NCBI GenBank assembly: GCA_004283055.1
Contig: SHLP01000006.1
Span: forward strand, 5,131-69,130
Reading direction: 5' to 3'
Length of the DNA: 64,000 nucleotides
Source of the DNA: Deltaproteobacteria bacterium
Lineage (GTDB): Bacteria; Myxococcota_A; Polyangia; Polyangiales; Houyiibacteriaceae
Part shown: positions 10,495 to 41,431 of the stretch, piece after piece
Numbering within the stretch: position 1 is the stretch's first letter
How the letters are laid out: each line of letters opens with the position of its first letter
The notes under the pieces: generated by a model
Databases searched by the model: none
What the model was told of the DNA's origin: nothing
Seen by the model: the letters and a program-made list of their open reading frames with translations, nothing else
Translations under genes and position numbers: made by a program

Positions 10495-11277
10495 TCAAGC
10501 GCGCTGGCTCGATACTGAGAGCACCTCGCCGGTCATGTACGAGCTGTAGTCGCTGGCCAAGAAGACCATCACGTTTGAGATTTCCCACGGTTCGGCGCCT
10601 CGCCCGAACGCCTCGCGTTTCTGCAGGTCCTCTAATAGGCCCGGCGGAGTGACCTTTTCGAGGAATGGGTGCATCGCGAGCGATGGAGAAACACAGTTGA
10701 TGCGGACGTTGCGTTCAGCGGCCTCGATCGCCGCGCAGCGCGTCAGGGCCATGACGCCTGCTTTTGCAGCCGCGTAGTGCGATTGACCCTCTTGCGCACG
10801 CCAGCCGAGCACCGAAGCGTTGTTGACGATGGCGCCCTTGCCTCGCGGCATCATGTGCTTGAGCGCAGCCCGGGTGCAGCGAAAGCAGCCGTTGAGCGTC
10901 ACGTCCAGCACCACGTTCCACTGATCGTCGGTCATGTCGATGACCTTTGCGTAACCGCCGAGCCCGGCGTTGTTCATGAGGACGTCCACGTGCCCCATCT
11001 TGTCGACTGCGAGCTCGAACATCGTCTGCACTTCGTCTTCCTTGGTGACGTTGCAAAGGACGATTTCGGGGCGCACCCCCGTTTCAGCCTCGACTTTGTC
11101 GGCTGCCTCCCCGAGTCGCCGCTCGTGAATGTCGCTAATCACCAGCCCTGACGCCCCTTCTTCGGCGCAGCGAACGGCTGTCGCAAAGCCGATGCCCGTC
11201 CCCGCCGCGGCAGTGATGAGAACGTTCTTGCCTTTGAGCAGGCCGTGGCCGCCGACATACGTGGGTTTGCTGTTCAT
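10495..11277 (-). CDS. SDR family oxidoreductase
   Basis: 260 aa. TAAAGTGIG glycine motif and YAAAK catalytic motif. It is the last gene of the 16308-to-10495 operon. Confidence 0.8.
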   Translation of the reverse strand: MNSKPTYVGGHGLLKGKNVLITAAAGTGIGFATAVRCAEEGASGLVISDIHERRLGEAADKVEAETGVRPEIVLCNVTKEDEVQTMFELAVDKMGHVDVLMNNAGLGGYAKVIDMTDDQWNVVLDVTLNGCFRCTRAALKHMMPRGKGAIVNNASVLGWRAQEGQSHYAAAKAGVMALTRCAAIEAAERNVRINCVSPSLAMHPFLEKVTPPGLLEDLQKREAFGRGAEPWEISNVMVFLASDYSSYMTGEVLSVSSQRA

Positions 11278-13594: not shown

Positions 13595-13598
13595 CCCC

Positions 13599-14381
13599 TC
13601 AGTCTCCTTGGTTCACGCTAGCGGCCGAAATGAAAGCGGGTGTTTCGCCGCCGCCATGAAGCACGAGATTCGCCCCGCTCACGTACGAGGCAAGAGGCGA
13701 GGCAAAAAACATGCACGCTCCTGCAACGTCGTCGGGCGTGCCGAGACGCTGTAGCGGCACGGTGCGTGCGACGCGCGCGATGCCATCCCCGTCGCCATAG
13801 TGAAGATGCGCCTGCTCGGTTCGAATCAGCCCCGCCGCGATCGAATTGACACGCACTTTGGGCGCCCATTCGATTGCAAGCGTCCCGGTCAGGTTGATCA
13901 GCCCGGCCTTGGCTGCGCCGTAAGCCGCTGTTCCGGGGGAAGGCCGCACCCCGGATACGCTGGCGATGTTGACGATCGAACCGCCTGACTCCTGAGCCTG
14001 CATGATGCGGTTCGCTTGCTGGGCGCAATGAAGGGCGGCGGTGAGGTTGAGCTGAATGATCTTTTCCGAGAACCGCGGAGAGGCCGTCGCTGCTTCCGCG
14101 AAGGGCGCGCCTCCGGCGTTGTTGACTAGCACGTCGAGCTGCCCGAGACGTTCGACGGTTTCGTCAACCATCTTTTCCACTTGTTTCGAATCCCGCACGT
14201 CGGCGCTCACGAACGATACTTTGTTGCCGCCAGCGCTTGGGAGCTCGTCGGGCTCGGTGCGCCCGCACACGGCGACCTTGGCGCCTGCTGCGAGGAACGC
14301 CTCAGCGATGCCCCGGCCAATTCCCCGGCTCCCGCCCGTGACCAGGATGGCTCTACCGACGAAGTCGAAGGGGTTGCTCAT
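13599..14381 (-). CDS. SDR family oxidoreductase
   Basis: 260 aa. VTGGSRGIG and YGAAK motifs. Confidence 0.8.
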   Translation of the reverse strand: MSNPFDFVGRAILVTGGSRGIGRGIAEAFLAAGAKVAVCGRTEPDELPSAGGNKVSFVSADVRDSKQVEKMVDETVERLGQLDVLVNNAGGAPFAEAATASPRFSEKIIQLNLTAALHCAQQANRIMQAQESGGSIVNIASVSGVRPSPGTAAYGAAKAGLINLTGTLAIEWAPKVRVNSIAAGLIRTEQAHLHYGDGDGIARVARTVPLQRLGTPDDVAGACMFFASPLASYVSGANLVLHGGGETPAFISAASVNQGD

Positions 14382-15289
14382 GTTCCGTACACTTTGACCG
14401 GTGGCTGCGCCTTGGATAGAAGCTCATCGACCGCCGTTCCCAGCGCGCCCGCATCCCATCGCTTGCTGATGGTCATCGTCTGCTCACGCCGGTAGCCGTC
14501 GAAGACTGTGACCGTGCCGCCAAAGACCTCCCAGACGCGCCCCGTGACGTCGCGCGACTGCGAGCTTGCAAGCCAGGCGACGAAGGGCGAGACATTGGCT
14601 GGGTCGTTCTCGTCGAAACCCTCGTCGGGCGCTTTCATGGCATCGCCGAACGCGCCTTCGGTCATTCGGGTCCGCGCAATCGGGCAAATTGCGTTCGCCG
14701 TGATGCCGTATCGACCGAGCTCGGCGGCCTGCACGAGAGTCAGCGTTGCGATGCCCGCCTTCGCCGCAGAGTAACTCGACTGACCGACGCTCCCGAGGAC
14801 TCCGGCGCCCGAGCTGGTATTGATGATACGCGCATCGACCTGCTCCCCGGCTTTGACGAGCCCTCTCCAATACGCAGCAGCGTGCCGAGACACACAAAAG
14901 TGCCCCTTGAGGTGAACCCGGATCACCGCATCCCATTCCTCTTCGCTACAGCTCACGAACATGCGGTCCCGGACGAAGCCTGCGTTGTTGACCACTGCAT
15001 CGAGTCGTCCGAACTCGTCGATGGCTTGCCGGACGAGCTCCTTGGTCTGTGCCCAATCCGCGACGTCCGCCCCGTTGGCCACGGCCTCTCCGCCCGAGTC
15101 GCGAATCGTCTGAACGACTTCGTCCGCCGGCCCGTGACCGCCGCCCTCGCCGCTGTTGCTCACGCCGAGGTCGTTCACCACGACTTTCGCGCCTTGTCGC
15201 GCGAGCTCGAGCGCATGCTCACGGCCGATGCCGCGACCTCCGCCGGTTACGATTACTACCCGTCCATCACAAATGCCAGTCATTCTCAA
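14378..15289 (-). CDS. SDR oxidoreductase, MFE-2/Hsd4A-like (3R)-hydroxyacyl-CoA dehydrogenase type
   Basis: 303 aa. VIVTGGGRGIGREHALELARQGAKVVVNDLG and YSAAK motifs. 4-nt overlaps on both sides. Confidence 0.7.
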   Translation of the reverse strand: MRMTGICDGRVVIVTGGGRGIGREHALELARQGAKVVVNDLGVSNSGEGGGHGPADEVVQTIRDSGGEAVANGADVADWAQTKELVRQAIDEFGRLDAVVNNAGFVRDRMFVSCSEEEWDAVIRVHLKGHFCVSRHAAAYWRGLVKAGEQVDARIINTSSGAGVLGSVGQSSYSAAKAGIATLTLVQAAELGRYGITANAICPIARTRMTEGAFGDAMKAPDEGFDENDPANVSPFVAWLASSQSRDVTGRVWEVFGGTVTVFDGYRREQTMTISKRWDAGALGTAVDELLSKAQPPVKVYGT

Positions 15290-16308
15290 ACCTCTGCGTC
15301 GGCCAGCTTGACCAACAGTTTCCCCCGATGTTCACCGCTGAACAGCCGAAGCAGATGAGCTGGAGCCTCGTCCAGACCTTCGACGATTTCATCGCGATAG
15401 CGAATCCTGCCCTCGCGGATCCATCGCGCGAGATCTGCCCGTGCCTCGTCGTATCGGGAAGCGAAATCCAAGGTAGTGAAGCCCTCCATGCGGGCGCTCT
15501 TCGCCAGGAGCCGGAGATAGTTGCTTGGTCCGGGTGGAAGCTTCGCATCGTTGATCTGTGAGATCGCGCCGCAAACCACCACCCGGCCGTGGTGGTTGAG
15601 ACGGGTCAGCGCCGTGTTGAGTATCTCCCCGCCGACGCTGTCGAAGAATACGTCGATGCCGTCTGGGCAGGCCTCATCCATGGCGGGGCGCAGGTTTGTC
15701 GTCTTGTAGTTGATTGCGGCATCGTAACCGAGCTCGTCGGTTAGCCAGGAGCACTTCTCATCGCTGCCCGTCAGTCCGACGGCCCGACACCCCTCGAGCT
15801 TTGCGATCTGGCCGACGATCGAGCCGACCCCACCTGCGGCGGCAGACACCAGCACGGTTTCGCCTTTTGTTGGTTTCCCGACCGCGAGCAAACCAAAGTA
15901 TGCTGTCAGCCCGGTTCCACCGAGGACGCTCAACATCGTAGAGAGGGGGATCCCCTCGATCGTCCTCACATTGCCGTGAAGCATTCGAGAGGAGACGACG
16001 CTGTACGATTCCCAGGCGGCTAACGCCTGCACGACTTGCCCAACCGACCAGCCCTCCGCTTTGGACTCAATGATCTCGGAGAGGGCTCCGCTCCGAATCG
16101 GCTCGCCGATCCCGATCGGAGGCAGGTACGATTTCGCCTCACTCATCCAGCCGCGTATCGCGGGGTCGATCGAAAGGTACAGGTTCTTGAGCAAGACCTC
16201 CCCGGCCGCGGGTACGCCTAGCGGAGCCTCCGCCTCCTCGAAATCCCCAATCGCCGGCACCCCAACCGGTCGCTTCCTCAACAAAATCTGCCGATTAACC
16301 TCCAACAC
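15286..16308 (-). CDS. NADP-dependent medium-chain reductase (YncB/alkenal double-bond reductase type)
   Basis: 340 aa with a GTG start. LYLSIDPAIRGWM and AAAGGVGSIVGQIAK motifs. Confidence 0.8.
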   Translation of the reverse strand: MLEVNRQILLRKRPVGVPAIGDFEEAEAPLGVPAAGEVLLKNLYLSIDPAIRGWMSEAKSYLPPIGIGEPIRSGALSEIIESKAEGWSVGQVVQALAAWESYSVVSSRMLHGNVRTIEGIPLSTMLSVLGGTGLTAYFGLLAVGKPTKGETVLVSAAAGGVGSIVGQIAKLEGCRAVGLTGSDEKCSWLTDELGYDAAINYKTTNLRPAMDEACPDGIDVFFDSVGGEILNTALTRLNHHGRVVVCGAISQINDAKLPPGPSNYLRLLAKSARMEGFTTLDFASRYDEARADLARWIREGRIRYRDEIVEGLDEAPAHLLRLFSGEHRGKLLVKLADAEV

Positions 16309-20769: not shown

Positions 20770-21534
20770 CTACAACGTGTATCCCCCATCGACGAAAATG
20801 GTTTGCCCGGTAATATAGCGGGCCCGCGCCGATGCGAGAAATACCGCGGCGTCGGCGACCTCCTCCGGAGTCCCAAAACGCCGAAGAGGCGTGTTTCGAG
20901 TCGCCGCATCGATCCATTCCTGGCTAAGCTCACCGCGTTCGACGAGCTTCGGAAACATTCCCGCGTCGACCACGCCCACCGCGACGATGTTGGCGCGGAC
21001 GCCGTTTCGACCCTCCTCTCGTGCGATGCCCCTCATGAGCGCCTCGATCGCGGCCTTGGGTGCAACCGAGAGCACATCTCCTGGCGGAAATCGTTTCAAG
21101 CCCGCCGAGCTGATGAACACGATGGAGCCGCGGCTCTTGCGAAGATGCGGGAGGGCCGCGTGCGCAACATGAAAGAAACCGTTCACATCCCATTCCATCG
21201 TGTTCCGCCACTGTTCCGGCGTGAGCTGGCTGATGTAGGGCTGCTCGATGTGTGTGCCGGCGGCGTGCGCAAGGCTGTGTATCGTACCGTGCTGCTCGAC
21301 GAGCCCATCGAGGCAGGCCTCCACGGAGTCGAGGTCTCCGAGCTCGATCGGGTGTATCGAGCAATGGCCGCCTCCAGCACGGATGCGTTCTGCGACCGCG
21401 ACCGCTGCATCTTCGTGGTGGCGGTACGTGATCGCGAGCGGAACCCCGGCTGCCGCAAACCCAAGCGCGATCGCGCTCCCGATACCACCGCTCCCTCCGA
21501 CGACCAGCGCTACGCCCTCTGGGAAATCAGCCAT
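20770..21534 (-). CDS. SDR family oxidoreductase
   Basis: 254 aa. VVGGSGGIGSAI motif and a classical SDR pattern. Confidence 0.8.
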   Translation of the reverse strand: MADFPEGVALVVGGSGGIGSAIALGFAAAGVPLAITYRHHEDAAVAVAERIRAGGGHCSIHPIELGDLDSVEACLDGLVEQHGTIHSLAHAAGTHIEQPYISQLTPEQWRNTMEWDVNGFFHVAHAALPHLRKSRGSIVFISSAGLKRFPPGDVLSVAPKAAIEALMRGIAREEGRNGVRANIVAVGVVDAGMFPKLVERGELSQEWIDAATRNTPLRRFGTPEEVADAAVFLASARARYITGQTIFVDGGYTL

Positions 21535-23158
21535 GCGCCAGCTCCCGAAGCTTGAATTTCACCACCTTGCCGGTCGCGTTGCGAGGCAGCGCCTCGACGA
21601 TCTCGACGCGCCTAGGGACTTTGAAGTTCGCCATGTTCTTCCGGCTCCAGGAAATCACTGCGTCGGCTGCAAGCGCCTGACCCGGCGCTGGGACGACGAA
21701 GGCCATCCCGACCTCGCCAAGTCGCTCGTCCGGCACCCCGATGACCGCAGCCTCACCCACGCCCGGCATCTGCAGCAAAGTGTTTTCGATTTCCGCGGGG
21801 TAGGCGTTGAAGCCGCCTACGATGAACATGTCTTTGAGGCGGTCGGTGATTTTGAGGTAGCCCCGCTCGTCCATGGTTCCGATGTCGCCGGTATGAAGCC
21901 AGCCCTCTGCATCGATGGCTCTTTTGGTTTCGTCATCCGCATCGAAGTAGCCCTTCATGACGTTGTAGCCGCGAACGACGATCTCGCCGGGCTGGTTCGC
22001 CGGAACGGCCTTGCCTTCCCGGTCGATGATCCGAACCTCGACATCCGGGATCGCCCGCCCGCTGGTCGTCGCGATGGTTTCCGCATCGTCGTCGAGTCGG
22101 CACATGCTCACGACCCCGCAGCTTTCGGTCAGTCCGTAGGCCGTAATCACCGTGTCGAAGCCGAGCTCGTCTTTCATGCGATGGATCAGCTCCACCGGGA
22201 TGACGGCTGCGCCAGTGACCGCCAGGCGTAGGCTCGAGATGTCGAAGCGCGAACGATCGGGGTGGAGCAGCATGGACTGATAGAGCGCAGGAGGCCCCGG
22301 GAGCATGGTGATGGCATCCTGCTCGATGCGTCGAAGCACCACGTTGACGTCGAAGACCGCTTCCGGAAACACCGTAGCGCCGCGCATCAAGGCGGAAAAC
22401 CAGCCCGCCTTGTACCCAAAACTATGAAAGAACGGCAGTACGATCAGATATCGGTCACCCTCGCGAAGCCCGACGATCGAGCTCCATTGATCGAAGGTGC
22501 GCAGGTTCTGTGCGTGCGTGCACATTGCGCCCTTGGGCTTGCCGGTCGTGCCTGACGTGAAAAGGATGTCCGCAAGATCGTCGGGTCGGACCTCGCTCGC
22601 GCGATCGGCCGCCGCGTTCGACGGCGCCTCCGAGGCGAGCTCGAGGAACGCGTCGTAGCTCAGTGTGCCCTCGGGGGCGTTCCCGCGCAGCACGATGATC
22701 TGCGCGAGTTGCGGAAGGTCTGCCCCGGCCTCGCCTAGGAGCGCGACGTAGTCGACGTCGAGGAAGCCGGTCACGGTGAACAGAGCTTTCGCGCCGCTCT
22801 TTCGGAGCAGGTACGCCGCTTCCATTCCTTTGTATCGGGTGTTGACTGGAACCAAGACCGCGCCGACCGTATGAATGGCCAAGGCACAGACGATCCACTC
22901 CCAGCTGTTCGGCGACCAGATGGCGACTCGATCGCCCTTGAGAATGCCCGCGGCGATTAGGGCCCGGGCCGCCTCGTCCACCCGCTCGGCAAGCTCGGCG
23001 AAGCTCAGGGTCATGGCGCCGTCTACGATGGCCGACCGATTACCAAGGGTTTCGGCCTGATTTTCCAACATTTCTGGAATCGTCTCGACCATGGCGCCCG
23101 TGATATCGCCATCCCCGAGCTTGGGCAACAGAGGACAACGGGTCACGGTATATTTCAC
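21527..23158 (-). CDS. Acyl-CoA synthetase (AMP-forming)
   Basis: 543 aa from the GTG at 23158; an alternative ATG is at 23092. FTSGTTGKPKGA and TGDIG motifs. Confidence 0.85.
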   Translation of the reverse strand: MKYTVTRCPLLPKLGDGDITGAMVETIPEMLENQAETLGNRSAIVDGAMTLSFAELAERVDEAARALIAAGILKGDRVAIWSPNSWEWIVCALAIHTVGAVLVPVNTRYKGMEAAYLLRKSGAKALFTVTGFLDVDYVALLGEAGADLPQLAQIIVLRGNAPEGTLSYDAFLELASEAPSNAAADRASEVRPDDLADILFTSGTTGKPKGAMCTHAQNLRTFDQWSSIVGLREGDRYLIVLPFFHSFGYKAGWFSALMRGATVFPEAVFDVNVVLRRIEQDAITMLPGPPALYQSMLLHPDRSRFDISSLRLAVTGAAVIPVELIHRMKDELGFDTVITAYGLTESCGVVSMCRLDDDAETIATTSGRAIPDVEVRIIDREGKAVPANQPGEIVVRGYNVMKGYFDADDETKRAIDAEGWLHTGDIGTMDERGYLKITDRLKDMFIVGGFNAYPAEIENTLLQMPGVGEAAVIGVPDERLGEVGMAFVVPAPGQALAADAVISWSRKNMANFKVPRRVEIVEALPRNATGKVVKFKLRELAHG

Positions 23159-23286: not shown

Positions 23287-23769
23287 ATGGACTGGGATTG
23301 GCGTGCGCGCCCGACCTACGAGTCGGACCGCCTGGGCGTCGACGGGAGACTCTTCCCCGTCGTTTTCTACAACATGAAGCAGCCGCGGCTCGTCGAGAAC
23401 CACGAGGTTGACCTCATGCTCGACTCGGCGGATTCGCACCTTCAGCGTGAGCTTCCGTTCGTTGCGCTGGTCTTGCAAAGGCGAGGCGCGGGCGTGATCG
23501 CGGCCCGCCATCGTCAAACCTTGGCGGAGTGGTTGGTCACGCGTCGCGAGGCCCTGGTACGCAGCGACCACTCGTTGGTCGTCGTCGTTCCGGAATCGAT
23601 CCACCGGGCTGTGCTTCGGGTCGTGTACCGGTTCCGAAAGCCACCTATTCGCACGATCACGACGCCGGATGCCGCGAGCGCCGCGGAGGCCGTGCGGACC
23701 GAGCTCCGGCGGATGAGACAGCCCGTCAGCGTCGAAATCGAGGGGTTCCTTCAGACACTGGCTCGCTGA
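23287..23769 (+). CDS. Hypothetical protein, paralog of 20338..20742
   Basis: I prefer the plus-strand ORF (23275..23769) over the overlapping minus ORF because of its paralogy to 20338..20742. The ATG at 23287 was chosen, so the start is uncertain. Confidence 0.45.
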   Translation: MDWDWRARPTYESDRLGVDGRLFPVVFYNMKQPRLVENHEVDLMLDSADSHLQRELPFVALVLQRRGAGVIAARHRQTLAEWLVTRREALVRSDHSLVVVVPESIHRAVLRVVYRFRKPPIRTITTPDAASAAEAVRTELRRMRQPVSVEIEGFLQTLAR

Positions 23770-23798: not shown

Positions 23799-23812
23799 TG
23801 AAACGCGTTTCA
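23799..23812. promoter_or_regulatory. KstR-type operator candidate TGAAACGCGTTTCA
   Basis: Perfect palindrome about 30 nt upstream of the echA GTG. It is preceded by GGCTTGAC (a -35-like element at 23783-23790). Confidence 0.6.
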
Positions 23813-23840: not shown

Positions 23841-24602
23841 GTGGGCATTTCATACGGAATCATTGATGGAATTGCCGAAATCGTCGTCGACTATCCTCCC
23901 GTGAACGCCGTTCCCGTGGCGGGTTGGTTCGAGCTGGCGGAGCGAATCACCGAAGCGGGCAACGACCCCGAGACGCGCGCCGTCATCCTGCGGGCCGAAG
24001 GCAGAGGCTTCAACGCGGGCGTCGATATCAAGGAGATGCAGGAGACCGAGGGGTTCGATGCGCTGCTCGGCGCCAATCGCGGCTGCTGGGAATCGTTCAA
24101 AGCGGTGTACGAGTGCAAGGTCCCGGTCATCACCGCGGTGCACGGCTACTGCGTCGGCGGTGGAATTGGGCTGGCCGGCAACTCCGATATCCTGATCGCC
24201 GCCACGGGGACCAGGTTCGCCTTGCCGGAGGTCGATCGGGGCGCACTCGGCGCGGCGACTCACCTCGCTCGTCTCGTTCCCGCGCTCAAAATGCGAGCCA
24301 TGGTGCTCACCTGTGAGCCTGCGACGGCGGAGGAGCTCCACAGCTGGGGCTCGGTCTACGCCCTGGTCGAAGCCGATCAGCTCGCGGAGAAGGCGAGAGA
24401 CGTTGCGCGCGCGTTTACGAAAAAGATTCCTCGCGTCGTCCGTGCGGCGAAGGAGTGTCTCAACAACATCGATCCCGTCGACGTGAATCGTTCGTATCGC
24501 TTCGAGCAAGGCTTCACATTCGAGCTCAACTTGGCCGGCGTGGCGGACGAGGCGCGTGACGCGTTCGTCGACAAGCGCGACCCCGTCACCGATAAGAAGT
24601 GA
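23841..24602 (+). CDS. Enoyl-CoA hydratase/isomerase (EchA20-like)
   Basis: 253 aa with a GTG start and a crotonase fold pattern (GRGFNAGVDIKEM, HGYCVGGGIGLAG). It is followed by CoA-transferase A/B and NMO genes, as in echA20-ipdABC. Confidence 0.85.
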   Translation: MGISYGIIDGIAEIVVDYPPVNAVPVAGWFELAERITEAGNDPETRAVILRAEGRGFNAGVDIKEMQETEGFDALLGANRGCWESFKAVYECKVPVITAVHGYCVGGGIGLAGNSDILIAATGTRFALPEVDRGALGAATHLARLVPALKMRAMVLTCEPATAEELHSWGSVYALVEADQLAEKARDVARAFTKKIPRVVRAAKECLNNIDPVDVNRSYRFEQGFTFELNLAGVADEARDAFVDKRDPVTDKK

Positions 24603-24614
24603 GGTAGCTTCGTA

Positions 24615-25457
24615 ATGGACAAACGCATGACGGTGGACGACGCCGTTGCCGAGGTCACCGATGGCATGACCATCGGGATTGGGGGATGGGGCTCGCGGCG
24701 CAAGCCGATGGCCTTCGTGCGAGCACTGGTCCGTAGAGGCGTGAAGGATCTGACGGTCGTCTCCTACGGCGGTCCCGATATCGGTATCCTTTGCGCGACC
24801 GGGCAGCTGAAGAAGGCCGTCTACGGTTTCGTGTCGCTGGACTCGATCCCGCTCGAGCCGCATTTTCGAAAAGCGCGGCAGAACGGAGCACTCGAGGCCG
24901 TAGAGCTCGACGAGGGAATGTTTCTGCTTGGGCTCCGAGCTGCGGCCCAGCGGCTGCCGTTTTTACCCACGCGGGCGGGGCTGGGCTCCGATGTCCTCAA
25001 AATCAACCCGCACCTCAGAACCGTCAAGTCGCCCTACGACGACCGCGAAGAGCTCGTCGCCGTGCCGGCGCTCAAGGCCGACGTCGCCTTCATTCACATG
25101 AATCGCGCTGACGCCGCGGGAAACGGCCAGGCACTGGGCCGTGACCCGTACTTCGACAACCTCTTTTGTATGGCGGCGAACAAGGCATTCATGAGCTGCG
25201 AGAAGATCGTATCGACGGAGGAGCTGGTGGCTGGCGGTCCGCTTCAGAGCCTGCTCATCAATCGCATGATGGTGAGCGGCGTGGTCGAAGCGCCGGGCGG
25301 CGCGCATTTCACCGAGTGCCCGCCCGACTATGCGCGCGACGAGAAGCTCCAACGGGAGTACGCGGCGACCGCCAAAGACGAAGAGGCCTGGAAGGCGTTT
25401 CGAGCGAAGTACTTGGAAGTGACCGAGTCCGATTACCAGAACGCGGTGTCCAGATGA
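24615..25457 (+). CDS. CoA-transferase subunit A (IpdA-like)
   Basis: 280 aa. The pattern DGMTIGIGGWGSRRKP is typical of glutaconate/3-oxoacid CoA-transferase alpha subunits. Confidence 0.8.
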   Translation: MDKRMTVDDAVAEVTDGMTIGIGGWGSRRKPMAFVRALVRRGVKDLTVVSYGGPDIGILCATGQLKKAVYGFVSLDSIPLEPHFRKARQNGALEAVELDEGMFLLGLRAAAQRLPFLPTRAGLGSDVLKINPHLRTVKSPYDDREELVAVPALKADVAFIHMNRADAAGNGQALGRDPYFDNLFCMAANKAFMSCEKIVSTEELVAGGPLQSLLINRMMVSGVVEAPGGAHFTECPPDYARDEKLQREYAATAKDEEAWKAFRAKYLEVTESDYQNAVSR

Positions 25458-26218
25458 GCCACGACGAAGTGTCGCGCGCGGACGTCTGCGCGCTCGCCAT
25501 CGCAGAGTGCTTTCGCAATGACGGTGAAATCATGGTCAGCGCGATGGGAACGAGCCCGAGCCTCGGCGCCCGACTTGCGAAGTCGACGTTCGAGCCCGAC
25601 TTGCTGATGACCGATGGGTTCAACTTGCTGCTCCGCAATGTGCTCCCCCTCGGCGCCGCGCCAAGCGATGGTGACGTCGAAGGCTGGATGCCATTTGGAG
25701 CCGTGTTCGACACGCTGTGGTGGGGACGCCGTCACGTCATGATGGGCGCATCCCAAATCGATCAATTCGGCAACCAAAACATCGCGTGCATCGGCCGATG
25801 GGAGAAACCCAAGGCACAGCTTCTGGGCGTACGGGGAGCGCCTGGCAACACGATCAACCACGTGACCAGCTACTGGGTTCCGAATCACAACGACCGCGCT
25901 CTCGTGGCCAAGGTCGACATGGTGAGTGGGGTCGGATACGACCGCGCCGCTGCACTGGGTCCAAACGGGAGGCGCTTCCATGAAATTCGGCGCGTCGTGA
26001 CCAACCTCGGCGTCTTTGACTTCAACACTCCCGATCACCGAATGCGCCTGGTGACGCTGCATCCCGGCGTGGAGCTCGAGCGGGTGCTCGACAACACCGG
26101 CTTCGAGCTGGTCATTCCCGATGGGCTGGACGTGACCCCGGTCCCGACCCCAGAACAAATTGGCGTCCTGCGCGAGCTCGATCCGCAAGGGTACGCCCGG
26201 AAAGAAGTCGTAGAATGA
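25454..26218 (+). CDS. CoA-transferase subunit B (IpdB-like)
   Basis: The start was set at the ATG at 25454, which forms an ATGA overlap with subunit A. 254 aa. Confidence 0.8.
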   Translation: MSHDEVSRADVCALAIAECFRNDGEIMVSAMGTSPSLGARLAKSTFEPDLLMTDGFNLLLRNVLPLGAAPSDGDVEGWMPFGAVFDTLWWGRRHVMMGASQIDQFGNQNIACIGRWEKPKAQLLGVRGAPGNTINHVTSYWVPNHNDRALVAKVDMVSGVGYDRAAALGPNGRRFHEIRRVVTNLGVFDFNTPDHRMRLVTLHPGVELERVLDNTGFELVIPDGLDVTPVPTPEQIGVLRELDPQGYARKEVVE

Positions 26219-27612
26219 GTGCTCAGAAGAGGACGACGAAGCCTCCCGCCAAGAAGCGAAAGCCGGCTGCCCCGAAGAAGCGGAAGTCCGCTGCGCCGAA
26301 GGCAAAACCCAAGCGAACGACGAAGGCTCCCGCCAAGAAGCGCGCTTCGGCCGCGCCGAAAGCGAAGCGGACGACCAAAGCACCGGCAAGATCCGAAGCG
26401 CCGAAGGCCAAACGTACCCAGAAGACCACCCGAAAGAAGCGCGCGTCCGTTGCTCCCAAAGCGAAGCCGAAAGCCAAGGCGCCCAAGAGCAAGCCTCGGG
26501 TCAGGGTCGCCGCTGCGCAGGCAACCAAAGCCACGAACGCGACCAAGCCCAAGACGACGAAGTCGGCTCTTCACACCCGCATCTGCGACATGTTTGGCAT
26601 CGACTATCCGATCATTCAGACCGGCATGGGCTGGGTGTCGGGCGCGAGCCTCACATCAGCGACCAGCGGGGCGGGTGGTCTCGGCATCTTGGCCGCTGCG
26701 ACGATGACATTTCGGGAGCTTCAAGAGTCGATCGCGAAGGTCAAGAGCCGCACCGACAAACCCTTCGGCGTCAACATGCGTGCCGATCAGTCCGATATCA
26801 TGAAGAGGGTCGAGCTTCTCATCCACGAGAAGGTGAAGGTCGCGAGCTTCGCACAGGCGCCCGGTGAGCGTGTCATCAAGACGCTCAAGGACGCAGGCGT
26901 GCTCACCATGCCGACCATTGGCGCTCGTCGCCATGCGGAGAAGGTGCAAGCCTGGGGAGTCGACGCAGTCATCGCCCAAGGCCAGGAGGGGGGCGGCCAC
27001 ACCGGACAAATCCCTACCTCGATTCTGCTTCCAGACGTCTCGGCGGCGGTCGACATCCCCGTCGTGGGCGCCGGCGGTTTCCGCGACGGCCGCGGCCTCG
27101 TTGCAGCCTTGTCACTCGGAGGCGCGGGGATCGCAATGGGAACGCGCTTCTTGCTGACGAAGGAGAGCCAGGTGCCGGAGCACGTCAAGCGGATCTACCT
27201 CGACACCAAGGCCAACGGCACCGTCGTGACGAAGGCAGTAGACGGCTACCCCCAGCGGGTCATTCGAACTCTCCTCATCGACCAGCTCGAAAAGGCCAAC
27301 CCGCTGACTCGGTTCCCGCGCGCGGCGCTCAACGCCTTGTCGCTCATGAGGGTCACCGGCACTTCGCTCCCCGAGCTTCTCGAGGAGGGGCTCGCAATGA
27401 AGCAGAACCAAGAGCTGACCTGGGCGCAGCTAGCCATGGCGGCGAATGCCCCGATGTTGACTAAGGCCTCGATCGTAGATGGGCGCGTCGAGGCGGGCAT
27501 TCTGCCGACAGGCCAGATCACCGGGGTCATCGACGAGATTCCGAGCGTCGCCGAGCTCCTTCGACGCATCATGACCGAGGCTGAGGCAACGCTCGAAGGC
27601 CTGGGCGCCTGA
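26215..27612 (+). CDS. Nitronate monooxygenase/enoyl reductase family protein (IpdC-like) with a ~120-aa Lys/Ala/Pro-rich N-terminal extension
   Basis: ATGA overlap with the subunit B stop. Residues 1 to ~120 are KKRK/APKAK repeats. The NMO domain starts at ICDMFGIDYPIIQTGMGWVS and contains QGQEGGGH. Confidence 0.75.
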   Translation: MSAQKRTTKPPAKKRKPAAPKKRKSAAPKAKPKRTTKAPAKKRASAAPKAKRTTKAPARSEAPKAKRTQKTTRKKRASVAPKAKPKAKAPKSKPRVRVAAAQATKATNATKPKTTKSALHTRICDMFGIDYPIIQTGMGWVSGASLTSATSGAGGLGILAAATMTFRELQESIAKVKSRTDKPFGVNMRADQSDIMKRVELLIHEKVKVASFAQAPGERVIKTLKDAGVLTMPTIGARRHAEKVQAWGVDAVIAQGQEGGGHTGQIPTSILLPDVSAAVDIPVVGAGGFRDGRGLVAALSLGGAGIAMGTRFLLTKESQVPEHVKRIYLDTKANGTVVTKAVDGYPQRVIRTLLIDQLEKANPLTRFPRAALNALSLMRVTGTSLPELLEEGLAMKQNQELTWAQLAMAANAPMLTKASIVDGRVEAGILPTGQITGVIDEIPSVAELLRRIMTEAEATLEGLGA

Positions 27613-27621: not shown

Positions 27622-28782
27622 ATGGATCTCAACTTCACCGATTCGGAGAACGCTTTTCGCCGCGAGTGCCGCTCTTGGCTCGAGGCCAACGTGCCTTCAC
27701 AACGTCTTCCGTCGGGCGACACCAAAGAGGGTTTCGCACTGCACCTGAACTGGGAGAACAAGCTCTTCGACGCAGGCTGGGCCGCGGTGTCCTGGCCGAA
27801 GGAGTACGGCGGGCGGGAGGCTACGCTCTTCGAGTGGCTGATCTTCGAAGAGGAGTACTACCGGGTTGGTGCCCCGAGCCGTGTCACCCAGAACGGCATC
27901 TTTCTCTTGGCGCCGACTTTGTTCGAATTTGGTACCGACGAGCAGAAGAGCCGAATTCTTCGGCCGATGGCGCGCGGTGATGTCACCTGGGGGCAGGCCT
28001 GGTCGGAGCCGAACGCTGGCAGCGACCTGGCCTCGCTCAAGAGCACGGCGCGCCGAGTCGAGGGGGGCTGGCGACTGACCGGCCAGAAGACCTGGTCTAC
28101 CCGCGCGGCTTTCTGCGACATGGCGTACGGCCTCTTCCGTACCGACCCTGACCAGGCGCGTCACCGTGGGCTGACCTATTTCATGTTCCCGCTTCGCGCC
28201 GAGGGCGTCACGGTGCGCGGGGTCGATCGACTCGACGGCGACGAAGGCTTTGCCGAGATCTTTCTCGACGATGTCTTCGTGCCCGAGACGGAGATTCTCG
28301 GCGAAGTGCATCACGGATGGAAGGTCGCGATGGCGACCACCAGCTCGGAGCGAGGTTTGAGCCTTCGGAGCCCCGGCCGATTCATGGCGATCGCATCTCG
28401 TTTGGTCAACCTCTATCATCGGTTCCGCGACCGCTCCGATCCGGTTCTTCGCGATCAAGTGATTCAGGCCTGGATGGACGCGCAGGTCTACCGCTGGTTT
28501 ACCTACCAGACGGTCACTCGCATGGCCGAGGGCGAAGAGATCGGGCCCGACTCGAGCATGAACAAGGTGTTCTGGTCGGAGATGGACGTGCGAACGCATG
28601 AAACCGCGCTCGCGATCATCGGTGATGCCCTCGAGCTCGACGAAGCCTCGCCAAGCGCTGTCGATGCCGGCGATTGGATGAGGGGTTTCCAGTTCGCACT
28701 CGCCGGGCCCATCTATGCGGGCACGAACGAAATCCAACGCAACATCATCGCGGAGCGCGTCCTCGGCCTTCCGCGGAAGTAA
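27622..28782 (+). CDS. Acyl-CoA dehydrogenase family protein (C-terminal IYAGTNEIQRNII)
   Basis: 386 aa. MDLNFTDSENAFRRECRSWLE. Confidence 0.85.
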   Translation: MDLNFTDSENAFRRECRSWLEANVPSQRLPSGDTKEGFALHLNWENKLFDAGWAAVSWPKEYGGREATLFEWLIFEEEYYRVGAPSRVTQNGIFLLAPTLFEFGTDEQKSRILRPMARGDVTWGQAWSEPNAGSDLASLKSTARRVEGGWRLTGQKTWSTRAAFCDMAYGLFRTDPDQARHRGLTYFMFPLRAEGVTVRGVDRLDGDEGFAEIFLDDVFVPETEILGEVHHGWKVAMATTSSERGLSLRSPGRFMAIASRLVNLYHRFRDRSDPVLRDQVIQAWMDAQVYRWFTYQTVTRMAEGEEIGPDSSMNKVFWSEMDVRTHETALAIIGDALELDEASPSAVDAGDWMRGFQFALAGPIYAGTNEIQRNIIAERVLGLPRK

Positions 28783-28786: not shown

Positions 28787-29800
28787 ATGCGTTTTGCATT
28801 CACCGATGACCAAAAGATGCTGCGCGATACCGTTCGCGATGTCCTGCGGCGCGAGTGCTCGCCCGAGGTCGTGCGCGACGCCTGGGAAGGAAAGACCGAA
28901 GGGGCTCGTTCGGCGTGGAATACGCTCGCGCAAACCGGCTTGATCGGGATGACGGCGTCCGAAGGGGCCGGCGGCATGTCGATGAGCGAGCTCGACCTCT
29001 TGCTTCCCTTGGAAGAGACCGGCTACGCGGCGATGCCCGGTCCGATCGTCGATACGGCGGCAGTTGGAATCCCCCTGCTCGAAGCAGCGGGCACCGACGC
29101 ACAGAGGGAGCGCTGGCTTGGACTCGCTGCTGCCGGTGAGGCGCGAATCGTCGTCTCGTTCGAAGATCGAGAGATGGTGCCACACGCGGCATCCGCCGAC
29201 ATCTTGATCGCGGAGCGGGGAGGGGCAGGCTACTGCTTGCCGATCGACGAAGTCTCGGTCGTTCCCGAGCGGTCCGTCGACCGGACACGCGAGGTCGGCA
29301 AAGTCGCCTTCGAGCCGAGCCCGAGCTACCGAATGCGCGAAGACGTGAACACCGTAGCTCTCTTCGCGCTGGGCCGGGAGCGCGCCGCGCTCGCGACAGC
29401 CGCTCAACTCGTTGGGCTGTCGCGCCGCATGCTCGACATGGCCGTGCAGTACGCCAAAGACCGCGAGCAGTTTGGCAAACCGATCGGCGCACAGCAGGCG
29501 ATCAAGCATCGGCTCGCAAACGCCCTCATCGAGCAAGAGTTCGCGCGGCCGACTGTGTACCGCGCCGGCTGGTCGCTCGCGACAGGCGCCCGTGACGCTG
29601 AGGTGGACGTCTCCCTTGCTAAGATCTACGCAGGCCAGGCTGCAAAATTCGTGGCGAAACAAGCTCTGCAAGTGCACGGCGCGATCGGCTACACGATCGA
29701 ATGCGACCTGCATATGTGGATGAAACGCGCCTGGGCGCTGGCCGCGGCACATGGCGACGCAGCGCACCACCGCGAGCGGGTCGGCCGACACGTTCTTTGA
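28787..29800 (+). CDS. Acyl-CoA dehydrogenase family protein (partner subunit type)
   Basis: The internal ATG at 28787 gives MRFAFTDDQKMLRDTV, 4 nt after the preceding ACAD. Confidence 0.8.
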   Translation: MRFAFTDDQKMLRDTVRDVLRRECSPEVVRDAWEGKTEGARSAWNTLAQTGLIGMTASEGAGGMSMSELDLLLPLEETGYAAMPGPIVDTAAVGIPLLEAAGTDAQRERWLGLAAAGEARIVVSFEDREMVPHAASADILIAERGGAGYCLPIDEVSVVPERSVDRTREVGKVAFEPSPSYRMREDVNTVALFALGRERAALATAAQLVGLSRRMLDMAVQYAKDREQFGKPIGAQQAIKHRLANALIEQEFARPTVYRAGWSLATGARDAEVDVSLAKIYAGQAAKFVAKQALQVHGAIGYTIECDLHMWMKRAWALAAAHGDAAHHRERVGRHVL

Positions 29801-29867: not shown

Positions 29868-31022
29868 ATGCCGGAAGCATACATCGTTGAAGCAGTTCGT
29901 TCGCCCGTTGGAAGAAAGAAGGGCGGCCTGAGCAAAGTCCACTCCGCGGACCTGGGCGCTCACGCCATCAAGGGCCTGATCGAGCGCACCGGGGTCGACC
30001 CGGGCGCCGTGGACGACGTTGTCTTCGGCTGCGTGGACTCGGTCGCGACCCAGGCCGGCGACATCGCTCGGACCTGTTGGTTAGCCGCCGGCTACCCGGA
30101 GCACGTTCCTGGTGTGACCGTCGATCGCCAGTGCGGGTCGTCTCAACAGGCGGTCCACTTCGCTGCGCAGGGCGTCATGAGCGGCACGCAGGACGTCGTC
30201 GTTGCCGGTGGTGTTCAGAACATGAGCATGATTCCGATCGGCGCCTCGATGATCGTCGGCAAGGAGCTCGGAATCCCCGACCCGTTTTCTACGTCGGTTG
30301 GTTGGAGCGAACGCTACGGCGACAGGCCGGTGAATCAGTTCTATGGCGCCGAAATGATCGCCAAGGACTGGGACCTCTCGCGAGAGGAGCTCGAGAAGTT
30401 TGCCCTCGAGAGCCACCGGCGCGCGATACAGGCCCAAAAAGAAGGGCGCTTCGATCGTGAGATCATTCCGTTCGGCGACGTCACGGCCGACGAGGGCCCT
30501 CGGGCCGACACCACGCTCGAGAAGATGGCAGCGCTTCCAATCCTGATGGAGGGCGGGCGGCTGACCGCTGCGGTGGCGAGTCAGATTTCAGATGGCTCCG
30601 CGGCCCTTCTCGTCGTCTCGGAAAAGGCCCTCAAAGAGCACCAGCTCACACCGCGGGCTCGTATCCACCATTTGAGCGTCCGGGGCGAAGACCCGATTCG
30701 TATGCTCTCGGCGCCGATCCCCGCGACCCGCTACGCCCTCGAGAAGTCGGGAATGAGCCTCGATGAAATCGACCTCGTCGAGATCAACGAAGCGTTCGCT
30801 CCGGTCGTTTGCGCGTGGGCGAAAGAGCTGGACGTCGATCTCGCGAAGGTGAACGTAAACGGCGGCGCCATTGCGCTCGGTCACCCACTGGGCGCGACTG
30901 GAGCCAAGCTCATGACGACGCTGTTGCACGAGCTCGAGCGCACCGGCGGCCGCTACGGGCTGCAAACGATGTGCGAGGGTGGTGGTCAGGCCAACGTCAC
31001 CATCATCGAACGACTGGGATGA
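29868..31022 (+). CDS. Acetyl-CoA acetyltransferase/thiolase (FadA5/FadA6-like)
   Basis: 384 aa. Nucleophile motif DRQCGSSQQ and C-terminal CEGGGQA. Confidence 0.9.
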   Translation: MPEAYIVEAVRSPVGRKKGGLSKVHSADLGAHAIKGLIERTGVDPGAVDDVVFGCVDSVATQAGDIARTCWLAAGYPEHVPGVTVDRQCGSSQQAVHFAAQGVMSGTQDVVVAGGVQNMSMIPIGASMIVGKELGIPDPFSTSVGWSERYGDRPVNQFYGAEMIAKDWDLSREELEKFALESHRRAIQAQKEGRFDREIIPFGDVTADEGPRADTTLEKMAALPILMEGGRLTAAVASQISDGSAALLVVSEKALKEHQLTPRARIHHLSVRGEDPIRMLSAPIPATRYALEKSGMSLDEIDLVEINEAFAPVVCAWAKELDVDLAKVNVNGGAIALGHPLGATGAKLMTTLLHELERTGGRYGLQTMCEGGGQANVTIIERLG

Positions 31023-31606: not shown

Positions 31607-31620
31607 TAGAACACGTTTCA
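31607..31620. promoter_or_regulatory. KstR-type operator candidate TAGAACACGTTTCA
   Basis: About 40 nt upstream of the scp2 ATG. GGCTTGAC (31581-31588) lies 18 nt upstream, so the site would overlap a -10 position. Confidence 0.6.
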
Positions 31621-37761: not shown

Positions 37762-38340
37762 ATGGATGATCGAGCCAAGCGTATCGTTGAAACAGCCGTC
37801 GCACTTGCGGAGCGAGACGGATACCAGGCGGTTCGCCTGCGGGACGTTGCGGCCAGTGCCCAAGTTGCGCTGGGCACCGTCTATAAGCGCTTTGCCAGCA
37901 AAGAAGAGATCCTGATTGCCGCCCTCGAGCAGGAGAGCGAAAAGCTCGTGGCCAAGATTGGCAGAAAGCCCGTTCCCGGCGACGGCCCCCGGGAACGCGT
38001 GCACTTCGTCTTTTCGGCGCTCACCAAGGGGCTCTTGCGGCGACCCAATCTCGCAAAAGCGCTGGTCCGGTCTCTCGCTTCAGGTGACCCGAACATCACG
38101 GAGCGAGTAGCAAGCTTTCATGCGCTCATCACAGCAATGGTCATGGCTGCAATTCGCGGTGAGGCCGCATCAGAGCAGGCAGAATGGGGTGGGGACGTCG
38201 ACGAACGCGAGCGCACGATTGCGTCGATTCTGCAAAACGTTTGGTTTGCTTCGTTCGTTGGCTGGGCCGGCGGCTTGCACGAGGCGTCGCAGCTTCTCCT
38301 GGACATCGACAAGACGACCGAGCTCCTCTTGGCGGATTAG
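37762..38340 (+). CDS. TetR/AcrR family transcriptional regulator (KstR-like candidate)
   Basis: 192 aa. The N-terminal HTH is GYQAVRLRDVAASAQVALGTVYKRFASKEEIL. It starts 2 nt after the kshA-like stop. Confidence 0.85.
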   Translation: MDDRAKRIVETAVALAERDGYQAVRLRDVAASAQVALGTVYKRFASKEEILIAALEQESEKLVAKIGRKPVPGDGPRERVHFVFSALTKGLLRRPNLAKALVRSLASGDPNITERVASFHALITAMVMAAIRGEAASEQAEWGGDVDERERTIASILQNVWFASFVGWAGGLHEASQLLLDIDKTTELLLAD

Positions 38341-41417: not shown

Positions 41418-41431
41418 TAGAACACGTTCTA
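41418..41431. promoter_or_regulatory. KstR-type operator candidate TAGAACACGTTCTA (perfect palindrome)
   Basis: It lies in the divergent intergenic region between the amidohydrolase (start 41339) and the hsaA-like gene. Confidence 0.65.

What the first reader, a model, noticed from the sequence alone, without database searches (positions are those of the whole stretch)
23841..27612. echA20-ipdA-ipdB-ipdC gene order of steroid ring C/D (HIP) degradation in a genome that does not look actinobacterial
Seen: an enoyl-CoA hydratase (253 aa), CoA-transferase alpha (280 aa), CoA-transferase beta (254 aa, ATGA-coupled) and an NMO-family reductase lie in one operon. Two ACADs and a thiolase follow.

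Established knowledge: this order and these sizes match, as I recall them, Rv3550-Rv3553 of M. tuberculosis. Those genes hydrolyse the last two steroid rings as CoA thioesters.

Several other features of the window are not the actinobacterial pattern: split cofG/cofH, short CofE, fused rlmKL, a PilZ protein and REP/RAYT elements. Inference: this is a Proteobacteria- or Myxococcota-like organism carrying an actinobacterial-style steroid core with KstR-type control, either acquired horizontally or an under-described lineage of steroid degraders.
Basis: partly seen in the sequence, partly recalled or inferred. Interest (0 to 1): 0.6.

Follow-up and report, generated by a model that had tools for sequence, protein, structure and literature searches.

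The report
Steroid ring-breakdown operon in a myxobacterium
An uncultured sediment myxobacterium carries a complete, conserved counterpart of the mycobacterial genes that break open the last two rings of steroids, which points to a bacterial phylum that the main surveys of steroid degraders did not list.

Summary
Window 23841-27612 encodes EchA20, IpdA, IpdB and an IpdC-type flavoreductase. An IpdE1/IpdE2-like ACAD pair and a FadA6-type thiolase follow, and fadD3 plus an SDR lie divergently upstream.

IpdA and IpdB score 351 and 274 bits against solved Rhodococcus and M. tuberculosis IpdAB, but only 88 and 63 bits against glutaconate CoA-transferase. IpdB has Gly where true CoA-transferases have the catalytic Glu.

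The genome is 100% complete by marker genes. Its nearest relatives are labelled Polyangiales, Myxococcales or delta proteobacterium, so it is a Myxococcota MAG. IpdB was found in all 35 other genomes of the genus searched and in 110 of 401 sampled genomes of the phylum. It was not found in other families of the same order.

A six-protein tree puts the operon in one clade with Actinomycetota operons (100/100). Inside that clade the myxobacterial operons form their own group (97/97). A second, proteobacterial-type arrangement exists elsewhere in the phylum, and a single myxobacterial origin is rejected (AU p about 1e-101).

A KstR-type operator, not a KstR2 one, sits just upstream of echA20 and is conserved across these myxobacterial lineages.

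The enzymes are ordinary; the host phylum and the regulatory wiring are new. The scan noted the same thing before in another myxobacterial genome.

The parts
20770..21534 (-). SDR oxidoreductase co-oriented with and downstream of fadD3. It is a candidate ring ketone/hydroxyl dehydrogenase of IpdF type; the assignment is uncertain.
   Evidence: Pfam adh_short_C2, 182 bits. Only generic NCBIfam hits below cut-off. The fadD3-SDR pair is conserved in the genus (84-93% identity), and next to fadD3 in two other myxobacterial families and in Burkholderia.
21527..23158 (-). FadD3-type HIP-CoA ligase, divergent from the echA20 operon.
   Evidence: NF005801 'FadD3 family acyl-CoA ligase', 768 bits against a cut-off of 657.
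23287..23769 (+). 160-aa ORF of unknown function between fadD3 and echA20.
   Evidence: No Pfam or NCBIfam hit. Found by tblastn only in loci of the same genus, at 59-79% identity, which is lower than for the enzymes. Also called as a gene in public assemblies.
23799..23812 (.). KstR-type operator TGAAACGCGTTTCA, 29 nt upstream of the echA20 GTG start.
   Evidence: The pattern TnnAACnnGTTnnA occurs 4 times in the window against 0.34 expected. A box at the same place is present in 10 of 10 other genus loci and 14 of 14 other type-A Myxococcota loci with upstream sequence, and in none of the Actinomycetota loci.
23841..24602 (+). EchA20, the crotonase-family ring-D hydrolase.
   Evidence: NF005925 (PRK07938 equivalog), 385 bits against 260. 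It is the only match above cut-off among 21 crotonase-like matches in the genome.
24615..25457 (+). IpdA, alpha subunit of the ring-C hydrolase IpdAB.
   Evidence: 351 bits to R. jostii IpdA (6CO6_A) and 348 bits to M. tuberculosis IpdA (6CON_A), against 88 bits to glutaconate CoA-transferase. Single copy in the genome.
25454..26218 (+). IpdB, beta subunit of IpdAB. Its start overlaps the ipdA stop (ATGA).
   Evidence: 274 bits to 6CON_B and 264 bits to 6CO6_B, against 63 bits to glutaconate CoA-transferase B. Gly55 aligns with RHA1 Gly57-beta, the position of the catalytic Glu in class I CoA-transferases (PMC5380842). Single copy.
26215..27612 (+). IpdC-type FMN enoyl reductase/dehydrogenase with a Lys/Ala/Pro-rich N-terminal tail of about 110 aa (26215-26544).
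   Evidence: Pfam NMO, 260 bits; FabK-like TIGR03151, 246 bits, below cut-off. 56% identical to the gene in the ipdC position in Nocardia farcinica. Tail sequence; tail conservation.
27622..28782 (+). Large ACAD subunit (IpdE1/ScdC1-like).
   Evidence: All three ACAD Pfam domains are present. Syntenic with ipdC in Myxococcota, Actinomycetota and Proteobacteria loci.
28787..29800 (+). Small ACAD subunit (IpdE2/ScdC2-like). The likely start is the ATG at 28787, behind a GGAAG.
   Evidence: The best NCBIfam hit is NF050027 'acyl-CoA dehydrogenase IpdE2', 139 bits, below the 450 cut-off. No Acyl-CoA_dh_M hit. Start candidates.
29868..31022 (+). FadA6-type thiolase.
   Evidence: NF005865 (PRK07801 equivalog), 709 bits against 591.
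10495..16308 (-). Second operon, behind a KstR box at 16321-16334. In order of transcription (16308 down to 10495): enone-reductase-like MDR, two SDRs (PRK07791 and PRK07856 types), an ACAD pair, and an SDR of PRK07831 type (10495-11277). These are probably the remaining HIP-pathway genes.
   Evidence: NF005861, 464 bits against 373; NF005893, 393 against 255; NF005880, 431 against 336; ACAD pair best matched by pimC/pimD- and IpdE2-type models below cut-off. Box. Matching these models to Rv3548c, Rv3549c and Rv3559c rests on my recollection only.
31607..31620 (.). KstR-type box TAGAACACGTTTCA before the side-chain operon. That operon comprises a ChsH2-OB protein, two Ltp-type thiolases, a FadD19-like ligase and KshA.
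   Evidence: Gene identities: PF01796, 81 bits; NF005924, 501 against 419; NF006180, 632 against 514; NF005863, 686 against 543; KshA_C, 174 bits.
37762..38340 (+). KstR-like TetR repressor.
   Evidence: The best NCBIfam hit is NF033703 KstR, 125 bits, below the 280 cut-off. The best solved relatives are M. tuberculosis KstR 5CW8 and 3MNL, 86 bits.
41418..41431 (.). Perfect KstR consensus box TAGAACACGTTCTA before hsaA and hsaEGF.
   Evidence: HsaA NF045629, 408 bits (cut-off 450). Acetaldehyde dehydrogenase and aldolase are above cut-off.

Best explanation
Window 20.8-31.0 kb is the HIP (steroid ring C/D) catabolic module of a complete aerobic 9,10-seco steroid pathway. It is native to a species-rich genus of uncultured Polyangiales-type Myxococcota with genomes of about 4 Mb.

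Inferred pathway, by orthology to the M. tuberculosis and R. jostii enzymes:
1. FadD3 activates HIP to HIP-CoA.
2. The IpdE1/E2-like ACAD pair and accessory hydratase and SDR enzymes shorten the propionyl side chain.
3. An SDR (IpdF-type) and IpdC make the enone HIEC-CoA.
4. EchA20 hydrolyses ring D to COCHEA-CoA.
5. IpdAB hydrolyses ring C.
6. FadA6 cleaves off acetyl-CoA.

The operon is repressed by a KstR-like TetR through a TnnAACnnGTTnnA operator at -29. The ring C/D genes therefore share one regulon with the side-chain and ring A/B genes, and have no separate KstR2 regulon as in mycobacteria.

Shown here: gene identities, orthology, distribution, phylogeny and operator conservation. Inferred: enzyme activities, substrate and repression.
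For: Orthology:
- PDB scores and Gly55-beta (PMC5380842).
- EchA20, FadD3 and FadA6 are above the NCBIfam equivalog cut-offs.
- ipdA, ipdB and echA20 are single copy.

Pathway context in the window: KshA (KshA_C, 174 bits), HsaA, HsaEGF, Ltp-type thiolases, a ChsH2-OB protein, FadD19-like and CasG-like ligases, and an F420 LLM oxidoreductase of Rv3520c type.

Elsewhere in the genome, each next to a strict KstR box: KstD-like (576 bits), HsaB-like, HsaC-like with HsaD-like, a P450, two more Rieske proteins whose only NCBIfam hit is the same weak one as the window's KshA, and a thiolase.

Native to the host:
- GC is uniform at 0.58-0.64.
- leu and ilv genes lie on the same contig.
- In relatives the operon sits on contigs of up to 1.9 Mb.
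- It is present in all 35 other genus genomes searched.

Regulation: box enrichment and conservation of the box across divergent Myxococcota.

Phylogeny.
Against: - There is no experimental or expression evidence.
- Several components score below the curated equivalog cut-offs: HsaA 408 of 450, HsaC 230 of 450, HsaD 198 of 400, KstD 576 of 788, KstR 125 of 280, IpdE2 139 of 450. Those models were built largely on Actinobacteria.
- KshB and a steroid uptake system were not looked for.
- No exact KstR box was seen by eye in the fadD3-orf160 spacer; no tool search was run on it.
- The natural substrate (sterol, bile acid or another polycyclic lipid) is unknown.
Confidence: 0.8

Rival explanations
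1. The same enzymes act on a non-steroid polycyclic or alicyclic lipid, such as a hopanoid or other terpenoid fragment or a bacterial sterol-like compound. The IpdAB/EchA20 module then opens a hydrindane-type CoA thioester that does not derive from eukaryotic steroids.
For: The substrate is untested. The genome has three paralogous Rieske proteins (KshA_C shown for the window copy; the other two give the same sole weak NCBIfam hit) and F420-dependent enzymes inside the regulon, which hints at unusual substrates. A related Acidimicrobiia locus comes from a family named 'Candidatus Hopanoidivoransaceae'. Most ring A/B enzymes fall below the equivalog cut-offs.
Against: The full set that defines the 9,10-seco pathway is present and co-regulated (KstD, KshA, HsaA-D, HsaEFG, FadD3, IpdABC, EchA20). 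Sterol and bile-acid side-chain genes (FadD19-like, CasG-like, Ltp/ChsH2-type) lie beside it.
Confidence: 0.12
2. The operon is a recent horizontal acquisition from an actinobacterium: a genomic island, or an actinobacterial contig mis-binned into the MAG.
For: The gene order matches Actinobacteria. The operon clusters with Actinomycetota at 100/100. It was not found in the other families of the same order.
Against: - Identity to any actinobacterial IpdB is only 53-63%.
- Type-A Myxococcota operons form their own clade at 97/97.
- The operon is present in all 35 other genus genomes searched, some on Mb-scale contigs.
- Composition is uniform and housekeeping genes lie on the same contig.
- The KstR box is shared with other Myxococcota but with no actinobacterial locus.
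Confidence: 0.03
3. The two CoA-transferase-like genes encode an ordinary class I CoA-transferase (glutaconate or 3-oxoadipate type) in a generic beta-oxidation cluster.
For: Automatic annotations call them 'acyl CoA:acetate/3-ketoacid CoA transferase'. Pfam sees only CoA_trans.
Against: Scores are four times higher to IpdAB than to glutaconate CoA-transferase. The catalytic beta-Glu is replaced by Gly. A Sinorhizobium 3-oxoadipate-type pair is only 33% identical and sits on a very long branch. There is synteny with echA20, ipdC and fadD3.
Confidence: 0.02

Closest known systems
HIP (ring C/D) catabolic genes of the KstR2 regulon of Mycobacterium tuberculosis and Rhodococcus jostii RHA1 (echA20-ipdA-ipdB-ipdC, fadD3, ipdF, fadE30-33, fadA6; Crowe et al. 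2017, PMC5380842)
   Same: It has the same enzymes and the same core order, echA20-ipdA-ipdB-ipdC. IpdA and IpdB are about 53-60% identical to the solved proteins. IpdB has Gly at the beta-subunit position where CoA-transferases have the catalytic Glu. fadD3 lies nearby and divergent.
   Different: The host phylum is Myxococcota. The IpdE-like ACAD pair and fadA6 follow ipdC directly in one operon. No KstR2 operator is present; a KstR-type box precedes echA20 instead. IpdC carries a basic low-complexity N-terminal tail. A genus-specific 160-aa ORF sits between fadD3 and echA20.
Proteobacterial scd-type cluster (Comamonas testosteroni scdL1L2-scdY-scdK-scdN-scdC1C2-scdF; seen here in Novosphingobium aromaticivorans pNL2, a Vibrio alfacsensis plasmid and Burkholderia arboris)
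   Same: It has the same tail of the operon (ACAD pair then thiolase), and a fadD3-SDR pair is adjacent in Burkholderia.
   Different: In Proteobacteria the order is ipdA-ipdB-hydratase-ipdC-echA20. Identity is only 40-47% for IpdB and 43-46% for IpdC and EchA20. The six-protein tree separates this type at 100/100. Many other Myxococcota families carry this second type, but the window's genus does not.
HIP operons of uncultured Actinomycetota (Acidimicrobiia and Actinomycetes MAGs, e.g. L056, L086, L099)
   Same: They have the identical seven-gene order echA20-ipdA-ipdB-ipdC-ACAD-ACAD-fadA6 and belong to the same deep clade.
   Different: No KstR-type box lies upstream (0 of about 45 loci). 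Three Actinomycetes loci have the KstR2 box. They form clades separate from the myxobacterial one.

Membership tests
IpdAB ring-C hydrolase (class I CoA-transferase fold) | Two adjacent genes encode alpha and beta subunits that are closer to characterised IpdAB than to any true CoA-transferase. | tested here: met
   351 and 274 bits to 6CO6/6CON chains, against 88 and 63 bits to glutaconate CoA-transferase 1POI.
IpdAB ring-C hydrolase (class I CoA-transferase fold) | The catalytic Glu of the beta subunit of class I CoA-transferases is absent (Gly57-beta in RHA1; PMC5380842). | tested here: met
   Window IpdB has Gly55 in the invariant TDG motif, aligned with RHA1 ..ITDGE.. (alignment A1).
IpdAB ring-C hydrolase (class I CoA-transferase fold) | The conserved alpha-subunit glutamate used for catalysis (Glu105-alpha, as I recall it from Crowe et al. 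2018; that paper is not held). | tested here: inconclusive
   The D-E-G-M motif (window IpdA Glu100) is conserved with both solved IpdA chains. I could not verify that this is the residue named in the paper.
IpdAB ring-C hydrolase (class I CoA-transferase fold) | Hydrolysis of COCHEA-CoA. | not testable with these tools
   Needs an enzyme assay.
EchA20 (ring-D hydrolase, crotonase superfamily) | Score above the curated equivalog cut-off, and synteny with ipdAB. | tested here: met
   NF005925, 385 bits against 260. It is the only one of 21 crotonase-like matches in the genome above cut-off.
FadD3 HIP-CoA ligase | Score above the curated equivalog cut-off. | tested here: met
   NF005801, 768 bits against 657.
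IpdC (FMN-dependent acyl-CoA reductase/dehydrogenase) | An NMO/FabK-like flavoenzyme encoded directly after ipdB. | tested here: met
   Pfam NMO, 260 bits. Position conserved. 56% identical to the Nocardia farcinica gene in that position. No curated IpdC model matched, so orthology rests on synteny and identity.
KstR regulon (TetR repressor plus TnnAACnnGTTnnA operator) | The operator motif lies at promoters of steroid catabolic operons. | tested here: met
   4 boxes against 0.34 expected, all at operon heads. 18 strict boxes genome-wide, including ones beside KstD-, HsaB-, HsaC/D- and KshA-like and P450 genes. Conserved across Myxococcota.
KstR regulon (TetR repressor plus TnnAACnnGTTnnA operator) | The repressor is a KstR equivalog. 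| tested here: not met
   NF033703, 125 bits, below the 280 cut-off. KstR is still the best family and the best solved relative. It works like KstR but is not a curated equivalog.
KstR2 regulon (actinobacterial control of HIP genes) | The AnCAAGnnCTTGnT operator lies upstream of HIP genes. | tested here: not met
   0 matches in the window. None upstream of echA20 or ipdA in any Myxococcota locus, while 3 Actinomycetes loci have it. The 11 genome-wide matches are not near steroid genes of contig C82.
Aerobic 9,10-seco steroid pathway | KstD, KshA, HsaA-D and HsaEFG are present in the genome. | tested here: met
   All have best-hit candidates. Only the acetaldehyde dehydrogenase and aldolase (HsaG/HsaF types) exceed equivalog cut-offs. 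KshB and an uptake system were not searched.

The most novel reading that the evidence does not exclude
Myxococcota are a large, overlooked phylum of aerobic steroid degraders. About a quarter of sampled genomes carry ipdAB, in two operon types of separate origin: one shares ancestry with Actinomycetota, the other with Proteobacteria. In the actinobacterial-type lineages the ring C/D genes are wired to a KstR-type operator, giving a single steroid regulon. In the window's genus and its sister genus, IpdC has also gained a histone-H1-like basic tail, which may tether the enzyme to an anionic surface such as the nucleoid, polyphosphate or the membrane.
Probability: 0.45. Interest if true: 0.65.

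Novelty: new member of a known kind. Interest (0 to 1): 0.45.

Why it matters
Two genome and metagenome surveys of the aerobic steroid pathway (Bergstrand 2016, Holert 2018) report it only from Actinobacteria and Proteobacteria. Neither mentions myxobacteria, and my full-text searches found no paper that does.

If these sediment myxobacteria really mineralise sterols or bile acids, they add a phylum to the carbon cycle of steroids in estuarine, marine and soil sediments. That would also link to the phylum's known sterol biosynthesis and predatory lifestyle.

The result gives a third major lineage for reconstructing how the pathway spread between phyla. The KstR-only wiring offers a natural comparison for how the mycobacterial two-repressor system (KstR and KstR2) arose.

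The enzymes themselves are orthologues of well-studied ones, so no new chemistry is implied.

Tried and rejected
- A tree of IpdA+IpdB alone (96 rows) left the backbone unresolved. It could not place the window's clade relative to Actinomycetota. I replaced it with a six-protein syntenic concatenation.
- The KstR2 operator search gave nothing in the window and only chance-level hits genome-wide.
- Crowe et al. 2018 (IpdAB structure paper) is not held, so the alpha-subunit catalytic Glu could not be verified.
- The 14 control genomes of the genome search include no steroid degrader. I took reference operons from the plasmid collection and from PDB alignments instead.
- The 208-aa minus-strand ORF 23227-23853 has no family hit. 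It overlaps the conserved plus-strand 160-aa ORF and the echA20 start, so I treat it as spurious.
- Glutaconate or 3-oxoadipate CoA-transferase identity was considered and rejected on scores and on the missing catalytic Glu.
- Mis-binning was considered and rejected on genus-wide conservation and Mb-scale contigs.
- I did not fold any protein, because solved structures at 53-60% identity make that unnecessary.

Full report
**Observation.** The ORF list and family scans confirm a plus-strand run:
- EchA20, 23841-24602: NF005925, 385 bits against a cut-off of 260.
- IpdA, 24615-25457.
- IpdB, 25454-26218, with an ATGA overlap onto ipdA.
- An NMO-family flavoprotein, 26215-27612, again with an ATGA overlap.
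- Two ACADs, 27622-28782 and 28787-29800. The second is best matched by the IpdE2 model.
- A thiolase, 29868-31022, above the PRK07801 (FadA6-type) equivalog cut-off at 709 bits against 591.

Divergently upstream lie a FadD3-family ligase (768 bits against 657) and an SDR. The 465-aa length of the NMO protein is due to a Lys/Ala/Pro-rich N-terminal tail of about 110 aa.

**Are these IpdAB or ordinary CoA-transferases?** Against all PDB sequences, IpdA scores 351 and 348 bits to the solved R. jostii and M. tuberculosis IpdA, and 88 bits to glutaconate CoA-transferase. IpdB scores 274 and 264 bits against 63 bits. Crowe et al. 2017 (PMC5380842) note that IpdAB lacks the catalytic beta-subunit Glu of class I transferases, which is Gly57-beta in RHA1. 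The window's IpdB has Gly55 in the same invariant TDG motif. ipdA, ipdB and echA20 are single copy in the genome.

**Context.** The window from about 10 to 48 kb is a large steroid cluster. It holds:
- CasG-like and FadD19-like ligases, Ltp-type thiolases with a ChsH2-OB protein, and several ACAD pairs.
- SDRs above the PRK07791, PRK07856 and PRK07831 cut-offs.
- A KshA (KshA_C domain, 174 bits), HsaA, and the HsaEGF meta-cleavage trio.
- A KstR-like TetR, and an F420-dependent LLM oxidoreductase of the Rv3520c subfamily next to F420 biosynthesis genes.

The flanks are housekeeping genes: rlmKL, and leuABCD, ilvC and ilvB. GC is uniform.

A genome-wide scan for strict KstR boxes led to further genes elsewhere in the assembly, each next to a box:
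- A KstD-like dehydrogenase (576 bits to NF005882).
- An HsaB-like reductase.
- An HsaC-like and HsaD-like pair.
- A P450.
- Two more Rieske proteins, whose only NCBIfam hit is the same weak one as the window's KshA.
- A further thiolase.

Most of these score below the curated equivalog cut-offs, but in each case except the P450 and the Rieske proteins the steroid family is the best hit.

**Host.** The assembly is 4.31 Mb, 100% complete and 1.6% contaminated by marker genes. The closest IpdB clusters and syntenic loci come from MAGs titled 'Polyangiales bacterium', 'Myxococcales bacterium' (including SG8_38), 'Deltaproteobacteria bacterium' and 'uncultured delta proteobacterium'.

**Distribution.**
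- IpdB was found in 24 of 24 and 18 of 18 genomes of the same genus in two draws, that is 35 distinct genomes, at 74-92% identity. Several are on contigs of 0.6 to 1.9 Mb.
- It was found in one of five other genera of the family.
- It was found in none of the other families of the same order that were sampled, for example 0 of 29 in the largest.
- Across the phylum, 110 of 401 sampled genomes and 62 of 254 genera have it.

**Two operon types.** Synteny analysis shows two arrangements.
- Type A is echA20-ipdA-ipdB-ipdC-ACAD-ACAD-fadA6. It occurs in the window's genus, in several other myxobacterial families, and in many uncultured Actinomycetota.
- Type B is ipdA-ipdB-(hydratase)-ipdC-echA20-ACAD-ACAD-thiolase. 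It occurs in many other myxobacterial families and has the same order as in Novosphingobium pNL2, a Vibrio plasmid and Burkholderia.

The window's IpdB is 53-58% identical to Actinobacteria and 40-47% to Proteobacteria.

**Phylogeny.** IpdA+IpdB alone left the backbone unresolved. A concatenation of six syntenic proteins (43 rows, 1901 columns, IQ-TREE, ultrafast bootstrap/SH-aLRT) gives three results.
- A 100/100 branch unites Actinomycetota with type-A Myxococcota, apart from type-B Myxococcota and Proteobacteria.
- Within that clade, all type-A Myxococcota form one group at 97/97.
- The window's genus plus the neighbouring genus (HKST-UBA22) form a group at 100/100.

Forcing all Myxococcota into one clade costs 302 log-likelihood units (AU p about 1e-101). 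At least one transfer between phyla therefore occurred, but it was ancient, and no sampled actinobacterium is a near donor. Inside the type-A clade, a genome of the same class is more distant than genomes of other classes. Together with the absence from sister families, this suggests later transfer within the phylum into the ancestor of the two genera. That is an inference. The direction of transfer cannot be read from an unrooted tree.

**Regulation.** TnnAACnnGTTnnA occurs four times in the window against 0.34 expected. Each lies at the head of an operon, and one is 29 nt before the echA20 start. The KstR2 motif is absent. The TetR at 37762-38340 is most like M. tuberculosis KstR, though below the equivalog cut-off.

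The box upstream of echA20 is present in all 10 other genus loci and all 14 other type-A myxobacterial loci that have upstream sequence. Their proteins are only 55-70% identical to the window's. The box is upstream in none of about 45 Actinomycetota loci, three of which carry the KstR2 box, and in none of the type-B loci. This footprint argues that the ring C/D genes of these myxobacteria belong to the KstR-type regulon. That differs from the two-regulon arrangement of mycobacteria.

**Literature.** Bergstrand 2016 and Holert 2018 do not mention myxobacteria or Deltaproteobacteria. Full-text searches combining Myxococcota with steroid or cholesterol degradation, kstD, kshA or ipdA returned nothing relevant. 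A 2026 preprint on a sterol reductase mentions uncultured myxobacteria only in connection with sterol biosynthesis. Subscription journals are not covered, so prior description cannot be excluded. Earlier notes of this scan reached the same reading on another myxobacterial genome. That is not independent evidence.

**Verdict.** The finding is a true, complete and conserved HIP module of the known kind, in a phylum not listed among steroid degraders. The notable variations are its single-regulator wiring and the tailed IpdC. The function is inferred from orthology only.

Noticed in passing
window 26215-26544 (N-terminus of IpdC): A Lys/Ala/Pro-rich, histone-H1-like tail (MSAQKRTTKPPAKKRK...) of 56-111 aa is fused to IpdC. 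It is conserved but variable in length in most species of the genus. A different AKK-rich tail of 69 aa occurs in the neighbouring genus. The tail is absent in three genus members and in all other lineages examined. This is unusual for a catabolic flavoenzyme, and its function is unknown.
   Followed up: partly
window 23287-23769 (+): A 160-aa ORF without any family match lies between fadD3 and the KstR box of echA20. It is found only in the genus and evolves faster (59-79% identity) than the neighbouring enzymes (about 90%).
   Followed up: partly
loci L111, L113-L116, L119, L121, L123, L125 and others (Myxococcota, other classes): Many other myxobacterial families carry a second, proteobacterial-type HIP operon (ipdA-ipdB-hydratase-ipdC-echA20-...). 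It has neither a KstR nor a KstR2 box upstream, so its regulator is unknown.
   Followed up: partly
loci L048-L103 (Acidimicrobiia MAGs): Dozens of Acidimicrobiia, including sponge-associated 'Candidatus Poriferisocius', have type-A HIP operons with neither the KstR nor the KstR2 operator pattern upstream.
   Followed up: no
locus L057 (MAG 'Myxococcales bacterium SP234'): Its IpdAB is nearly identical to that of Acidimicrobiaceae MAGs from the same study and nests inside that clade. This is probably a mis-binned contig and not a myxobacterial gene.
   Followed up: no
loci L041, L042, L043, L047: Contigs labelled Desulfurellales, Spirochaetales, Geobacter and Binatia carry type-B operons that nest among Myxococcota. 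L042 is almost identical to a genome of the window's phylum. The public labels are probably unreliable.
   Followed up: no
window 41357-42715 (hsaA): The longest hsaA ORF begins upstream of the KstR box at 41418-41431, and the HsaA profile match starts only at residue 72. The true start is probably downstream of the box.
   Followed up: no
window 49422-50099 (+): A REP-associated tyrosine transposase (RAYT)-like gene (NF047646, 53 bits, below cut-off) lies just after the steroid cluster, between it and the malic enzyme and leu/ilv genes.
   Followed up: no
locus L133 (Sinorhizobium meliloti pSymA): The distant CoA-transferase pair used as outgroup lies between a cofH gene and an F420-dependent LLM oxidoreductase. 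This is another link between this transferase fold and F420 enzymes.
   Followed up: no
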